In this document: one piece after another, positions 34,503 to 37,134 of the stretch
How positions within the stretch are numbered: position 1 is the stretch's first letter
Layout of the letters: each line of letters starts with the position of its first letter
Source: an uncultured Bacilli bacterium
GTDB taxonomy: Bacteria; Bacillota_I; Bacilli_A; RFN20; CAG-631
Length of the DNA: 41,201 nucleotides
Direction of reading: 5' to 3'
NCBI GenBank assembly: GCA_934202505.1
Contig: CAKPXW010000002.1
Location: 1 to 41,201, forward strand
Made by a program: the position numbers and the translations under genes
The notes under the pieces: generated by a model
Seen by the model: the letters and a program-made list of their open reading frames with translations, nothing else
Databases searched by the model: none
What the model was told of the DNA's origin: nothing

Positions 34503-36029
34503 ATGCAAAAAATTGTTCATGTTCCACTTGATGAAAGACCATGTAATTATGATTTTCCTAAAGAAATGTTTCAAGGAAGTGAATTTGATATAATTCGTGT
34601 TCCTTTTGAATATATGGGATTAAAGAAAAAACCTGGTAATATTGAAAAAATAAAAAGTTTTCTTCTTAAGGAATGTCAAGATGCCTATGCTTTAATTGTA
34701 GCAATCGATACTATGGTTTATGGTGGTATTGTTCCTTCAAGATTACATTATTTTACTTTACAAGAAGTGCTAGAAAGACTTTATTTATTAAAAGAGATAA
34801 AAAGAATTAATCCTAAAATAAAAATATATGCATATAATCTTGTTATGCGTTGTCCACGATATGACGATGATGATGAAGAGCCATTCTATTATCAATATTT
34901 TGGTTATGCTATTCATATGAAAAAAGCCTTAGAACATAAAATAATGGCAAATGTTGCTACTAAAGAAGAAATTGAAGAATATAATTCTTATATTATTCCT
35001 GATGAATATGTTAATGATTATAGTTCAAGAAGAGAAATTAACACAGCCCTTACTTGTGAAGCAGTAAAACTTGTTTATGAAAATATTATTGACTTTTTAA
35101 TTGTTCCTCAAGATGATTCAGCACCATTTGGCTATACTGCTCTTGATCAAATGAAAGTAAGAGGGATTACCACTAAATATCATCTTGAAGATAAAGTTTT
35201 AACTTATCCTGGTGCTGATGAAGTATCTAATACTTTATTTGCAAGAATGCTTAATGAATATTATCATAAAAAGCCTCTAATTTATGTAAAATATCCAAGT
35301 GATGCTTCTAAAAATGTAATTCCATGTGCTGAAGATAGACCTCTTGATATTTCAGTGCGCTATCAAATAATTGCTGCGGGGGCATTACTTACAACTTCTT
35401 TAAAAGAAGCTGATTTAGTATTAGCAATTAATGCGCCTTCTTCTTCAATGTGTTCAATAGGTTTTGAAGAATATGCTGATTATCATAGTTATGTGGTTGG
35501 TAGAAATCTTCTTGATTTCGTAGAATTTATTAAATATTGTCTAAGTATCAATAAACCAGTTACTATTTGTGATATTGGATATGCAAATGGAGCTGATAAA
35601 GCTTTAGTATCTTTAATAGATAGTAATGATTTATATATGTCTCTTGCAGGTTATGCTAGTTGGAATATTCCTTGTAATTCTTTAGGAACTGCAATACCTA
35701 TGGGAATTAAATATATTTATCCTCATGACAAGAAAAAGTTTGATGATTTTTTAATGCATCGTTTTGTTGAAGACATTTTATATTGTGGATTAAGCAGAAC
35801 TATTTTAAGAAAAAAATATTGTAACGAGTCTACAGGTTTTACTATATATGATACCAAAGGGCAAAGAAATGAAACATTTTTATCTTTCACAAAAAAAGTT
35901 TTAGAAGAAAATTTAAATGAATTTACTCCTCATTTAAAAAACAGATTTAAAATTTTAGATATGTATTTTCCTTGGAGTAGAACTTATGAAATTGGTTTAA
36001 AAGTGGAGGCTGTCGAAAAAAATGGCTAA
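34503..36029 (+). CDS. DUF4127 family protein
   Basis: 508 aa. The N-terminal HVPLDERPCNYDFP matches my recollection of the DUF4127 signature. GAGGTG RBS. Confidence 0.6.
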   Translation: MQKIVHVPLDERPCNYDFPKEMFQGSEFDIIRVPFEYMGLKKKPGNIEKIKSFLLKECQDAYALIVAIDTMVYGGIVPSRLHYFTLQEVLERLYLLKEIKRINPKIKIYAYNLVMRCPRYDDDDEEPFYYQYFGYAIHMKKALEHKIMANVATKEEIEEYNSYIIPDEYVNDYSSRREINTALTCEAVKLVYENIIDFLIVPQDDSAPFGYTALDQMKVRGITTKYHLEDKVLTYPGADEVSNTLFARMLNEYYHKKPLIYVKYPSDASKNVIPCAEDRPLDISVRYQIIAAGALLTTSLKEADLVLAINAPSSSMCSIGFEEYADYHSYVVGRNLLDFVEFIKYCLSINKPVTICDIGYANGADKALVSLIDSNDLYMSLAGYASWNIPCNSLGTAIPMGIKYIYPHDKKKFDDFLMHRFVEDILYCGLSRTILRKKYCNESTGFTIYDTKGQRNETFLSFTKKVLEENLNEFTPHLKNRFKILDMYFPWSRTYEIGLKVEAVEKNG

Positions 36030-37134
36030 TTATAATTTAATTGATTATGATAATTGTATTACTAACCTTACAAGTTCTATTGAAAAAAATTTCAATTTAC
36101 CTCCTAGTTACAAAACATTAAAAGTTGCTGATGAATTATTAAAAGAAAAAGACTATAAAAATGTAATTGTAATGATTTTTGATGGAATGGGTAGTGCTAT
36201 CATTCAAAAAAATAATGCAGAAAGTAATATTCTATTTAAAAATAAAGTTGCTGATTTCAAATCTACTTATCCTCCAACAACAGCTAATTGTACAACAGCT
36301 TATTTATCAGGAAAAAATCCAATAGAAACAGGATGGCTTGGATGGAGTAGTCACTTTGAAAGTTTAAATCTTTCTATAGATAATTTTACTAATGAATTAT
36401 CGGACACTAAAGAAAAAATTTCCGGAGCTAATATTGCTAATGATTTGCTTGGATATGAAGAACTTGGAAATAAAATTACTAAGGCAAACCCAGATGTTAA
36501 ATATTATAAAATTGGTCCTAGATATTTTCCTTATAAATATTTTTCTTTTAGACAACTTGAAAGCCGTCTTTTAAAAATATGCAATGAACCTGGGAAAAAA
36601 TATATTTATGTTTATCATGATAATCCAGACCATTATATGCATGAAGAAGGAACACAAAATCTAGGAGTTGAAAATATATTAAAAAATATTTCGAAATTTT
36701 TAACTAGATTTGAAAAAAGATGCACTGATACAATTGCTTTTATTAGTGCTGATCATGGTCAAATTGATGTTAATGAAATAGCTTTTTATACTTATTATGA
36801 TTTGATGAGTTGTTTAAAAGCCTATCCTACTTGTGATTCAAGAACTCCTTTTTTCTTCGTAAAAGATGATAAAAAGGAACAATTTAAAGAATTATTTAAT
36901 AAATATTTTTCATCTTATTATGATTTATTAACTAAAGAGCAAGTTAAAGAAATGCATATTTTTGGTTATGGAAATCCACACCCATTATTTGATAGTCTTC
37001 TTGGTGACTTTATTGGTATTGCTAAAAGTAACTACTATTTTTCTTTTGCTCCAAATGGTCATCATTTTAAAGGACATCATGCAGGACTACTAGAAGATGA
37101 AATAACTATTCCTTTAATTGTAATAAAAAAATAA
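36022..37134 (+). CDS. Alkaline-phosphatase-superfamily protein (type I phosphodiesterase/nucleotide pyrophosphatase-like)
   Basis: MIFDGMGS metal Asp, YPPTTANCTTAYLSGKNP nucleophile region, SADHGQ and KGHHAG motifs. 8-nt overlap with the DUF4127 gene. Confidence 0.7.
   Translation: MANYNLIDYDNCITNLTSSIEKNFNLPPSYKTLKVADELLKEKDYKNVIVMIFDGMGSAIIQKNNAESNILFKNKVADFKSTYPPTTANCTTAYLSGKNPIETGWLGWSSHFESLNLSIDNFTNELSDTKEKISGANIANDLLGYEELGNKITKANPDVKYYKIGPRYFPYKYFSFRQLESRLLKICNEPGKKYIYVYHDNPDHYMHEEGTQNLGVENILKNISKFLTRFEKRCTDTIAFISADHGQIDVNEIAFYTYYDLMSCLKAYPTCDSRTPFFFVKDDKKEQFKELFNKYFSSYYDLLTKEQVKEMHIFGYGNPHPLFDSLLGDFIGIAKSNYYFSFAPNGHHFKGHHAGLLEDEITIPLIVIKK

What the first reader, a model, noticed from the sequence alone, without database searches (positions are those of the whole stretch)
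34503..37134. DUF4127 plus an alkaline-phosphatase-superfamily gene embedded in the alpha-glucan locus
Seen: the two genes overlap by 8 nt (ATG at 36022, TAA at 36027..36029), implying coupled translation. They are flanked by a divergent GH13 alpha-glucosidase and by glgB-glgP downstream. The second protein keeps phosphodiesterase/NPP-type residues (DGMG, PPTT nucleophile region, SADHG, GHHAG). Established: DUF4127 has no assigned function, and AP-superfamily enzymes hydrolyse or transfer phosphate, sulfate or phosphodiester groups. Inference: the pair may act on phosphorylated glucans or sugar-phosphodiesters (by analogy, glycogen or starch phosphate removal in eukaryotes), or on a glucan-linked cell-wall polymer. 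This is speculative.
Basis: inference. Interest (0 to 1): 0.55.

Follow-up and report, generated by a model that had tools for sequence, protein, structure and literature searches.

The report
DUF4127 plus NPP-type phosphodiesterase operon
Two tightly coupled genes for soluble enzymes, an uncharacterised DUF4127 protein and an intact NPP-type phosphodiesterase, sit beside glycogen genes only in one narrow group of gut bacteria; elsewhere DUF4127 belongs to amino-sugar (ManNAc/GlcNAc) breakdown operons, so a role in glycogen phosphate removal is unlikely.

Summary
ORFs 34503..36029 (DUF4127, E 2.5e-139) and 36022..37134 (PF01663, NPP-type) overlap by 8 nt. They lie between a divergent GH13 alpha-1,6-glucosidase and glgB-glgP. 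The second protein keeps all six metal ligands and the Thr nucleophile, and its model matches ENPP4/5/6 (TM about 0.65).

The glycogen reading is weak. Of 80 species-level DUF4127 loci, only 7 carry the AP-like gene; these form one monophyletic clade of gut Bacilli. All 7 keep the GH13 gene, but only 4 have glgB/glgP nearby. glgB also has its own conserved promoter.

In the other 73 loci DUF4127 sits in sugar-importer operons with NanE (44), an FAD oxidoreductase (44), RpiR (38) and ROK kinase (33), plus GH20/GH84/GHL10, NagA/NagB and O-acetyl esterases. None has a NanA lyase. Natural fusions join DUF4127 to ROK kinase, NanE, GHL10 and esterases.

DUF4127 therefore most likely releases a free N-acetylhexosamine inside the cell. 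Here the phosphodiesterase probably strips a phosphodiester decoration first, which points to a cell-wall-type glycan. The DUF4127 model is confident but has no PDB counterpart. Function remains inferred, and interest is moderate.

The parts
32748..34385 (-). GH13 (subfamily 31-like) alpha-1,6-glucosidase, divergently transcribed. It is the only neighbour kept next to the pair in every relative.
   Evidence: PF00128, E 1.2e-143. It scores below the cutoffs of both TreC models. Best PDB relatives are 4AIE glucan 1,6-alpha-glucosidase and 1UOK oligo-1,6-glucosidase. Present upstream in 7/7 genome loci and in 4 metagenome loci of the clade.
34471..34479 (+). Candidate extended -10 promoter element (TGTTATAAT) for the DUF4127/AP-like operon.
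   Evidence: Read from the sequence. The same TGnTA(t/a)AAT element lies 20-35 nt before the DUF4127 start in L001, L002, L004-L007, L085 and L087. The generic promoter scan was no better than chance, so this rests on conservation only.
34503..36029 (+). DUF4127 protein, 508 aa, soluble. Predicted cytoplasmic carbohydrate-active enzyme of unknown fold class.
   Evidence: PF13552, E 2.5e-139. There are 71 invariant columns, rich in Asp/Glu/Arg/Trp. AF2 pLDDT is 93.5. No PDB match has TM above 0.24. No hydrophobic segment.
36022..36029 (+). 8-nt overlap of the DUF4127 stop with the AP-like start (ATGGCTAA). A GGAGG lies 12 nt upstream of the ATG.
   Evidence: Equivalent overlaps or abutments occur in relatives.
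36022..37134 (+). NPP-type alkaline-phosphatase-superfamily enzyme, 370 aa, soluble, with a complete two-metal site and a Thr87 nucleophile.
   Evidence: PF01663. Invariant D54, T86, T87, D203, H207, D244, H245 and H353. Profile hit to ENPP4, E 1.5e-8, with T87 aligned on the ENPP Thr. AF2 pLDDT 96. Foldseek hits ENPP5/6/4 and PhnA at TM 0.62-0.66.
37136..37185 (+). Two AU-rich hairpins directly after the AP-like stop codon. Possible weak terminator or operator marking the operon boundary.
   Evidence: RNA fold -13.3 kcal/mol, z -3.7, and 0 of 200 shuffles fold as well. There is no U-run, and the terminator scan did not call it.
37187..37194 (+). Candidate extended -10 promoter (TGTAAAAT) of glgB, which would make glgB-glgP a separate transcription unit.
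   Evidence: A conserved TG(T/G)TAAAAT element sits upstream of glgB in the window, L001 and L005-L007.
37215..39020 (+). glgB, the 1,4-alpha-glucan branching enzyme. Neighbouring context, not part of the pair's operon.
   Evidence: NF008967, 668 bits against a cutoff of 577. CBM48, GlgB_N and Alpha-amylase_C domains.
39031..41201 (+). glgP, alpha-glucan phosphorylase, truncated by the window end. Neighbouring context.
   Evidence: Open frame of 723 aa. It is 68-75% identical to the roughly 800-aa orthologues that follow glgB in L001 and L005-L007. The same contig continues with a CBM48-GH13 debranching-type gene and an SGNH/GxDLY esterase.

Best explanation
The two genes form one translationally coupled operon encoding two cytoplasmic enzymes that together dismantle a phosphate- or phosphodiester-decorated sugar or oligosaccharide.

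Proposed steps:
1. The NPP-type enzyme uses two metal ions and Thr87 to cleave a phosphodiester (or phosphate) substituent.
2. DUF4127 then releases a free monosaccharide, most likely an N-acetylhexosamine such as ManNAc. A sugar kinase and downstream amino-sugar enzymes encoded elsewhere in the genome then take it up.

The likely substrate is a fragment of a cell-wall-type glycopolymer (teichoic-acid-like, capsule-like or secondary cell-wall polymer), not glycogen. In this reading the phosphodiesterase plays the role that O-acetyl esterases play beside DUF4127 in other bacteria: it removes a decoration before the sugar is released. The adjacent GH13 alpha-1,6-glucosidase may remove an alpha-glucosyl decoration.

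Shown: gene structure, intact NPP catalytic set, soluble proteins, clade-restricted pairing, and the family-wide context and fusions of DUF4127.
Inferred: the reaction types, the order of steps and the substrate.
For: Coupling:
- 8-nt overlap in the window.
- Overlap or abutment in all relatives that carry the pair.
- A conserved promoter element in front of the pair.

NPP enzyme:
- Metal ligands and Thr nucleophile are invariant.
- ENPP-like fold, TM 0.62-0.66.

DUF4127 family context, in the 73 non-AP loci:
- ABC permeases in 55, NanE in 44, PF12831 FAD oxidoreductase in 44, RpiR in 38, ROK in 33.
- Also GH20, GH84, GHL10, NagA and NagB.
- SGNH, CE2 and alpha/beta-hydrolase esterases.
- NAGPA phosphodiester glycosidase in 5 loci, directly adjacent in L055 and L071.
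- No NanA-like lyase in any locus, so a ManNAc-producing step is missing and DUF4127 is the constant unknown.

Rosetta-stone fusions, in 10 long homologues:
- DUF4127-ROK in 5, DUF4127-SGNH esterase in 2, and DUF4127-NanE, DUF4127-GHL10 and DUF4127-alpha/beta hydrolase in 1 each.

Transfer to the window protein:
- 94 columns are conserved identically in the AP-linked clade and the rest. Only 8 fixed differences exist, mostly conservative.
- The AP-linked clade is monophyletic and nested among amino-sugar-context lineages.
- All three proteins lack signal peptides and transmembrane segments.
- GHL10 domains are known from a peptidoglycan lytic transglycosylase, Cwp19 (PMC6016235), which ties the family context to cell-wall glycans.
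Against: - In the AP-linked clade, no NanE, ROK, NagA/B, importer or esterase lies within 10 kb (0/7). The downstream pathway is therefore assumed to be encoded elsewhere.
- The only conserved neighbour is an alpha-glucosidase, and glgB/glgP are often nearby. Both point towards glucose chemistry rather than HexNAc chemistry.
- No DUF4127 fusion or other conserved partner is a phosphoesterase. NAGPA in 5 loci and single GDPD, 5'-nucleotidase and sulfatase cases are the only hints.
- The wider AP-like family has no conserved neighbourhood that would suggest a substrate.
- DUF4127 has no structural relative (TM 0.24 or less), so even the reaction class (hydrolase, lyase or other) is unproven.
- The Asn that binds the phosphoryl group in canonical NPPs aligns with an invariant Trp108, so the substrate preference could be unusual.
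Confidence: 0.4

Rival explanations
1. First reader's main idea. The pair processes phosphorylated alpha-glucans: endogenous glycogen phosphate, or phospho-maltodextrins from dietary starch. The AP-like enzyme removes glucan-bound phosphate so that GlgB, GlgP and the glucosidases can act. DUF4127 assists in an unknown way.
For: - The GH13 alpha-1,6-glucosidase is next to the pair in all relatives (7/7 genome loci and 4 metagenome loci).
- glgB/glgP follow directly in the window, L001/L081 and L098, and lie within about 5 kb in L005-L007 and L085-L087.
- Glucan-bound phosphate lowers the substrate affinity of branching enzymes, including a bacterial one (PMC13011383). This gives a physiological rationale.
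Against: - No glg or GH13 gene lies near DUF4127 in the other 73 species-level loci.
- Within the clade, L002 and L004 have no glgB within 5-6 kb downstream.
- An opposite-strand LtaS-like gene separates the AP-like gene from glgB in L005-L007.
- glgB has its own conserved promoter.
- No CBM or DSP domain is present. The enzyme is NPP-type, a diesterase architecture, not a monoesterase type.
- DUF4127 keeps the family's conserved core, and that family is fused to ROK, NanE and esterases.
- Whether bacterial glycogen is phosphorylated at all is only speculated (PMC13011383).
Confidence: 0.13
2. The conserved triad (GH13 alpha-glucosidase, DUF4127, NPP) degrades a small alpha-glucosyl phosphodiester compound. 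Examples are glucosyl-glycerol-phosphate units or glycolipid/lipoteichoic-acid head groups. In this lineage DUF4127 would have shifted from HexNAc to a glucose-based substrate.
For: - The GH13 gene is the only invariant neighbour. It shares a short divergent intergenic region of 74-245 nt with the pair.
- ENPP6, one of the best structural matches, is a glycerophosphodiesterase.
- Cell-envelope genes (LtaS-like, GT8-like) sit next to the pair in L005-L007 and L002.
- There are 8 clade-specific fixed substitutions, including one next to the invariant W387-N388.
Against: Ninety-four conserved positions are unchanged, which argues against a large change in specificity. No transporter or regulator is linked. 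Conserved synteny among related genomes may simply be inherited gene order.
Confidence: 0.15
3. There is no shared substrate. The AP-like protein is a general cytoplasmic nucleotide pyrophosphatase/phosphodiesterase that became co-transcribed with DUF4127 in one lineage by genome compaction. The alpha-glucan neighbours are incidental.
For: Most AP-like homologues (about 70 of 80 metagenome loci) are stand-alone with no conserved neighbour. Two examined contexts differ from each other. The pairing occurs in a single clade.
Against: Stop/start overlap or abutment is kept across proteins that have diverged to 55% (DUF4127) and 42% (AP-like) identity, while the outer flanks vary. Such retention usually reflects co-function.
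Confidence: 0.15
4. The pair is biosynthetic. It builds or modifies a phosphodiester-containing envelope polymer rather than degrading one.
For: LtaS-like (L005-L007) and GT8-acyltransferase-like (L002) genes are adjacent.
Against: Both proteins are soluble with no membrane segment. DUF4127 elsewhere sits behind importers and in front of catabolic enzymes, and is fused to catabolic kinases and esterases.
Confidence: 0.05

Closest known systems
Ectonucleotide pyrophosphatase/phosphodiesterases (ENPP4/5/6, bacterial NPP) and phosphonoacetate hydrolase PhnA; AP superfamily, Pfam PF01663
   Same: Same fold (Foldseek TM 0.62-0.66). Same six metal ligands and Thr nucleophile. Single catalytic domain of about 370 aa, like ENPP4-6.
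   Different: About 15% identity only. It is cytoplasmic with no signal peptide. The phosphoryl-binding Asn of NPPs aligns with an invariant Trp108. The substrate is unknown. It is translationally coupled to a DUF4127 gene, which is not reported for any NPP.
Glucan phosphatases laforin, SEX4 and LSF2
   Same: They would share only the proposed task of removing phosphate from an alpha-glucan, and a position next to glucan-metabolising enzymes.
   Different: Those enzymes are dual-specificity phosphatases (Cys nucleophile, Cx5R) carrying CBM20/CBM48 modules (established knowledge). Here the protein has an AP-superfamily metalloenzyme fold, a Thr nucleophile and no CBM. This is not a member of that family.
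ManNAc/sialic-acid (nan) utilisation clusters of Firmicutes: RpiR regulator, ABC importer, ROK NanK, NanE
   Same: The wider DUF4127 family sits in exactly this kind of operon and is fused to ROK or NanE.
   Different: No NanA lyase is present in any of the 80 loci. The operons carry GH20, GH84, GHL10 and esterases instead of sialidases. The window's own locus has none of these genes within reach.
Teichoic-acid and sugar-phosphodiester degrading enzymes: GDPD-type GlpQ, PhoD, and NAGPA 'uncovering enzyme'-type phosphodiester glycosidases
   Same: The proposed logic is the same: cleave a phosphodiester in a glycopolymer so that sugars can be recovered. NAGPA genes flank DUF4127 in 5 loci.
   Different: The fold and family differ (NPP against GDPD, PhoD or NAGPA). 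Those enzymes are typically secreted (established knowledge), whereas this one is cytoplasmic.

Membership tests
Pfam DUF4127 (PF13552) | Full-length match to the family HMM above the gathering score | tested here: met
   465.5 bits against a cutoff of 27. Residues 4-499 cover profile positions 1-488 of 489.
Pfam DUF4127 (PF13552) | Retention of the family's invariant residues (PLDERPCN, YGGIxPSR, EEP, PQDD, PGADE, EDR, NG, YAxWN, RxxED, PWxR) | tested here: met
   All 71 invariant columns are present in the window protein. 94 columns are conserved identically in the AP-linked clade and the rest.
NPP/PhnA branch of the alkaline-phosphatase superfamily (PF01663) | HMM match above the gathering score | tested here: met
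   39.4 bits against a cutoff of 23, covering residues 48-353.
NPP/PhnA branch of the alkaline-phosphatase superfamily (PF01663) | Two-metal site: Asp plus the nucleophile, Asp-His, Asp-His and a distal His | tested here: met
   D54, D203, H207, D244, H245 and H353 are invariant in 29 sequences.
NPP/PhnA branch of the alkaline-phosphatase superfamily (PF01663) | Thr nucleophile aligned with the catalytic Thr of ENPPs | tested here: met
   T87 aligns with the Thr of the ENPP4 'TKT' motif in the profile alignment and is invariant.
NPP/PhnA branch of the alkaline-phosphatase superfamily (PF01663) | Asn about 21 residues after the nucleophile that hydrogen-bonds the phosphoryl group (numbering recalled from ENPP and Xanthomonas NPP) | tested here: not met
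   The aligned position is the invariant Trp108. This rests on a remote profile alignment, so it is provisional.
NPP/PhnA branch of the alkaline-phosphatase superfamily (PF01663) | AP-superfamily alpha/beta core fold | tested here: met
   AF2 pLDDT 96. Foldseek probability 1.00 and TM 0.62-0.66 to ENPP5/6/4 and PhnA.
NPP/PhnA branch of the alkaline-phosphatase superfamily (PF01663) | Phosphodiesterase or pyrophosphatase activity | not testable with these tools
   Needs enzymology.
Glucan phosphatases (laforin/SEX4/LSF2) | Dual-specificity phosphatase domain with Cx5R, plus a starch/glycogen-binding CBM | tested here: not met
   Pfam finds only PF01663 and weak PglZ in the AP-like protein, and only PF13552 in DUF4127. 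No DSP or CBM domain.
glg (glycogen) operon | Conserved linkage to, and co-transcription with, glg genes across genomes | tested here: not met
   glgB/glgP lie within 10 kb in 4/7 AP-linked loci and 0/73 others. glgB has a separate conserved promoter element. An opposite-strand gene intervenes in L005-L007.
nan-type ManNAc catabolic cluster | NanE and a ROK (NanK-type) kinase in the same locus | tested here: not met
   This holds for the family at large (44/73 and 33/73; fusions). It does not hold for the window or its clade (0/7; window ORFs).
Glycoside hydrolase with a (beta/alpha)8-barrel (candidate class for DUF4127) | Structural similarity to a known GH fold with a catalytic acid/base pair | tested here: inconclusive
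   The best Foldseek hits are TIM-barrel enzymes (GH1, xylose isomerase, GH20) but with TM of only 0.16-0.24. The profile search against PDB sequences found nothing.

The most novel reading that the evidence does not exclude
DUF4127 founds a new carbohydrate-active enzyme family with a fold not yet seen in the PDB. It performs the missing ManNAc-releasing step, for example a beta-N-acetylmannosaminidase; no paper in the held library mentions such an enzyme. In this gut lineage it has recruited a cytoplasmic NPP-type phosphodiesterase, forming a two-enzyme module that dismantles phosphodiester-linked HexNAc/alpha-glucosyl cell-wall or capsule fragments. A still more radical reading is not excluded but is less likely (about 0.1): an NPP-based bacterial phosphoglucan phosphatase system unrelated to laforin/SEX4.
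Probability: 0.2. Interest if true: 0.7.

Novelty: new variant of a known kind. Interest (0 to 1): 0.42.

Why it matters
DUF4127 is a sizeable family found mainly in Bacillota. The exhaustive search found 2574 representative clusters, and at least 549 matching genomic stretches were confirmed in the species-representative genome collection. It has about 70 invariant residues, a confident predicted structure with no solved counterpart, and no literature.

The comparative data give it a concrete, testable role: releasing a free N-acetylhexosamine in importer-linked amino-sugar operons that lack any known ManNAc-producing enzyme. If confirmed, this would add a new enzyme family to cell-wall and capsule glycan recycling.

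The window shows a lineage-specific variant in which an NPP-type phosphodiesterase replaces the usual O-acetyl esterases as partner. This hints at catabolism of phosphodiester-linked glycans in poorly known gut Bacilli.

The work also warns against reading function from a single neighbourhood. The glycogen genes beside the pair are probably a separate unit.

Tried and rejected
1. Sequence searches of both proteins against PDB chains. DUF4127 found nothing, either as a single sequence or as a profile. The AP-like single sequence gave only noise; the profile was needed.
2. Foldseek of the DUF4127 model against the PDB gave TM of 0.24 or less, so no fold assignment was possible. Model coordinates are not exposed, so no topology or pocket analysis could be done.
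3. The generic promoter and terminator scan was no better than shuffles. I relied on cross-species conservation instead.
4. Literature searches for DUF4127, PF13552 and N-acetylmannosaminidase returned 0 papers.
5. The idea that the GH13 enzyme is a TreC phosphotrehalase, which would give a phospho-sugar theme, was rejected. It scores below both TreC cutoffs, and its best structural relatives are 1,6-alpha-glucosidases.
6. The idea that the AP-like protein is a phosphomutase (PPM/iPGM type) was not supported. Its top structural matches are ENPPs and PhnA.
7. A search for a conserved partner of the wider AP-like family found none. Two individual contexts were uninformative.
8. A search for other phosphoesterases beside DUF4127 found only NAGPA (5 loci) and single GDPD, 5'-nucleotidase and sulfatase cases.
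9. A second DUF4127 paralogue in two MAGs of the same lineage (L037, L050) has a housekeeping, uninformative context.
10. The first attempt to scan metagenomes with the broad AP alignment failed for lack of a conserved stretch. It was repeated with a narrower alignment.
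Full report
**Observation**

The window holds two same-strand ORFs, 34503..36029 (508 aa) and 36022..37134 (370 aa). They overlap by 8 nt (ATGGCTAA), and a GGAGG lies 12 nt before the second ATG.

Pfam assigns the first ORF to DUF4127 (PF13552, E 2.5e-139, full length). It assigns the second to PF01663 'Phosphodiest' (39.4 bits, cutoff 23) with a sub-threshold PglZ hit. NCBIfam has no model for either.

Upstream and divergent is a GH13 gene (32748..34385). It falls below both TreC cutoffs. Its closest solved relatives are glucan 1,6-alpha-glucosidase 4AIE and oligo-1,6-glucosidase 1UOK. 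Downstream are glgB (37215..39020, above the NCBIfam equivalog cutoff) and glgP (39031 to the window end).

On the longer public contig that carries the identical protein, a CBM48-GH13 debranching-type gene and an SGNH/GxDLY esterase follow. The window has 28% G+C. The nearest genomes are uncultured gut Bacilli/Erysipelotrichaceae MAGs.

**The AP-like protein**

An alignment of 29 homologues reaching down to 34% identity keeps D54, T86, T87, D203, H207, D244, H245 and H353 invariant. A profile of that alignment hits ENPP4 (E 1.5e-8) and ENPP5. T87 falls on the catalytic Thr.

The AlphaFold model is very confident (pLDDT 96). It matches ENPP5/6/4 and phosphonoacetate hydrolase at TM 0.62-0.66 with about 15% identity.

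One departure stands out. The Asn that binds the phosphoryl group in NPPs aligns with an invariant Trp108. This rests on a remote alignment and is provisional.

The protein has no signal peptide or membrane segment.

**DUF4127**

The family is large. The word-indexed search returned 1651 hits. The exhaustive HMM search returned 2574 representative clusters, 1074 of them at E of 1e-30 or better. At least 549 matching stretches in the GTDB species-representative genomes encode a relative.

Thirty-two diverse members share 71 invariant columns rich in Asp, Glu, Arg and Trp. These include PLDERPCN, YGGIxPSR, EEPxYY, PQDD, PGADE, EDR and YAxWN.

The model is confident (pLDDT 93.5, pTM 0.93). Even so, Foldseek finds nothing in the PDB above TM 0.24. 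The weak hits are mostly TIM-barrel sugar enzymes. Profile-to-PDB sequence searches are empty. No paper in the held library mentions DUF4127 or PF13552.

I fetched the 80 best species-level loci with 10-kb flanks, called ORFs, and clustered them. The table gives the number of loci in which each neighbour occurs.

| Neighbour within 10 kb | AP-linked clade (L001-L007) | Other loci |
|---|---|---|
| AP-like gene | 7/7 | 0/73 |
| GH13 glucosidase | 7/7 | 0/73 |
| glgB/glgP | 4/7 | 0/73 |
| ABC permeases | 0/7 | 55/73 |
| NanE | 0/7 | 44/73 |
| PF12831 FAD oxidoreductase | 0/7 | 44/73 |
| Solute-binding protein | 0/7 | 42/73 |
| RpiR regulator | 0/7 | 38/73 |
| ROK kinase | 0/7 | 33/73 |

- The AP-like gene follows DUF4127 only in L001-L007, where DUF4127 is at least 55% identical to the window protein. 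An HMM search confirms there is none elsewhere.
- In L002 and L004, unrelated genes follow the pair.
- In L005-L007, an opposite-strand LtaS-like gene lies between the AP-like gene and glgB.
- The other 73 loci also carry GHL10, GH20, GH84, NAGPA phosphodiester glycosidase, NagA, NagB, GNATs and several O-acetyl esterase types. Fifty-eight of the 73 have at least one such amino-sugar gene.
- The typical order is RpiR - SBP - permease - permease - [GH84] - DUF4127 - FAD oxidoreductase - [GHL10] - NanE - ROK - [esterase] - GH20 - SGNH.
- No NanA-like lyase occurs in any locus. The query sequence was recalled from memory, which is a caveat.

The reciprocal scan started from the AP-like protein in metagenomes. 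DUF4127 is adjacent only for the closest AP-like homologues (L085-L087, L148, L161). About 70 other AP-like loci have no DUF4127 and no conserved neighbour.

An NJ tree puts all AP-linked DUF4127 proteins in one clade, nested among amino-sugar-context lineages. The pairing is thus a derived, lineage-specific state on both sides.

**Domain fusions**

Eleven of the best 150 representatives are 700-880 aa long. I scanned ten of them:
- five are DUF4127-ROK kinase fusions;
- two are DUF4127-SGNH esterase fusions (one with CE2_N);
- one each is DUF4127-NanE, DUF4127-GHL10 and DUF4127-alpha/beta hydrolase.

Three lines now converge: these fusions, NanE immediately downstream in most operons, and the missing ManNAc-producing enzyme. 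Together they make the most economical reading that DUF4127 acts in the cytoplasm on an imported, often O-acetylated, HexNAc-containing glycoside. It would liberate a free sugar, probably ManNAc, that the kinase and NanE then process. This is inference; the chemistry (hydrolase, lyase or other) is untested.

GHL10 domains are known from Cwp19, a peptidoglycan lytic transglycosylase (PMC6016235). That links the family context to cell-wall glycans.

**Applying this to the window**

The AP-linked clade keeps 94 of the columns that are conserved in the rest of the family. It differs at only 8 fixed positions, mostly conservatively. The window protein probably has the family's activity.

Its partner here is a phosphodiesterase rather than an esterase, and the coupling is maintained. 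Stop/start overlap or abutment is seen in every member, while DUF4127 has diverged to 55% and the AP-like protein to 42% identity and the outer flanks vary.

A conserved extended -10 element precedes the pair in nine loci. A different conserved extended -10 precedes glgB in five. Two stable hairpins follow the AP-like stop codon. The pair and glgB-glgP therefore look like separate transcription units.

I conclude that the operon most likely removes a phosphodiester decoration and then releases a sugar from a cell-wall- or capsule-type fragment. Polymers that combine ManNAc, phosphodiester, O-acetyl and alpha-glucose are known, for example teichoic-acid linkage units and some capsules (recalled knowledge, not tested here).

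**Weak points of this conclusion**

- No NanE, ROK or importer lies near the pair in this clade (0/7).
- The only invariant neighbour is an alpha-1,6-glucosidase.
- No other DUF4127 lineage has a conserved phosphoesterase partner apart from NAGPA in 5 loci.

**The glycogen-phosphate idea**

It cannot be excluded. The GH13 link is perfect within the clade, glg genes are often near, and glucan phosphate does impair branching enzymes, including a bacterial one (PMC13011383).

However, it lacks family-level support (0/73). It lacks a CBM or DSP module. It relies on a diesterase-type enzyme. The same paper treats phosphorylation of bacterial glycogen as speculation. I give it about 0.13.

**Verdict**

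- The AP-like protein is a new, divergent member of the NPP family.
- DUF4127 is a member of a known but uncharacterised family, now with a specific functional prediction.
- The pair is a lineage-specific variant of the DUF4127 catabolic module.
- Interest is moderate. It lies mainly in DUF4127 as a candidate new enzyme family.

Noticed in passing
window 3686..5659 (+), with 1908..3683 and 5726..7735: A 657-aa GHL10 (PF02638) protein lies 29 kb upstream of the pair. GHL10 is a frequent neighbour and even a fusion partner of DUF4127 in other genomes. It is flanked by an Endonuclease I/OB-fold protein and a 669-aa protein with no Pfam hit.
   Followed up: partly
L081 18955..20055 (same contig as the window, beyond its end); also L001 19074..20183: An SGNH/GxDLY esterase follows glgP and the debranching-type GH13 gene. 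It clusters with the SGNH esterases that end the DUF4127 amino-sugar operons of Bacillus and Clostridia (cluster 15, 11 loci). It may be a relic of the ancestral operon.
   Followed up: partly
L001-L080 (Paenibacillus, Bacillus, Clostridia, Acholeplasma, Haloplasma loci): There is a widespread conserved operon: RpiR - ABC importer - [GH84] - DUF4127 - PF12831 FAD oxidoreductase - [GHL10] - NanE - ROK - esterase - GH20 - SGNH. It has no NanA lyase, and no paper in the held library mentions its constant unknown member (DUF4127/PF13552). Several other families without Pfam hits (clusters c24 and c51) travel with it in Acholeplasma/Haloplasma-type loci.
   Followed up: partly
L008 4740..9327 and L011 6949..11518: Three tandem DUF4127 paralogues (44-48% identical to the window protein) sit between GH84/GHL10 genes in Acholeplasmataceae MAGs. 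In L055 and L071, two copies flank a NAGPA phosphodiester glycosidase.
   Followed up: no
L005 14635..16539, L006 9604..11538, L007 12229..14136 (all minus strand): A 635-aa LtaS-like protein (Sulfatase domain, itself in the AP superfamily) is inserted on the opposite strand between the AP-like gene and glgB in three relatives.
   Followed up: partly
window 37136..37185: Two AU-rich hairpins, one with a 12-bp perfect stem, lie between the AP-like stop codon and the glgB promoter element. Energy is -13.3 kcal/mol, z -3.7, with no U-tract.
   Followed up: partly
window 14902..18948 (+): A 1348-aa protein carries Peptidase_M64 (IgA peptidase), DUF6273 and InlB B-repeat-like domains. It is a candidate secreted host-interaction protease.
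   Followed up: no
window 30678..31439 (+): A 253-aa protein is made of three DUF1508 repeats. Next to it on the opposite strand is a CobW-like GTPase and DUF1980_C pair (28216..30382).
   Followed up: no
window 11661..12011 (+): A short (116 aa) ORF matches only part of the inorganic pyrophosphatase profile (positions 30-115 of 153). It may be a truncated gene or a pseudogene.
   Followed up: no
L037 9989..11557 and L050 9914..11557: The MAGs that carry the AP-linked DUF4127 (L003 and L002) also hold a second, 43-44% identical DUF4127 paralogue. It stands alone among housekeeping genes (germination protease, formyltransferase, NrdD).
   Followed up: partly
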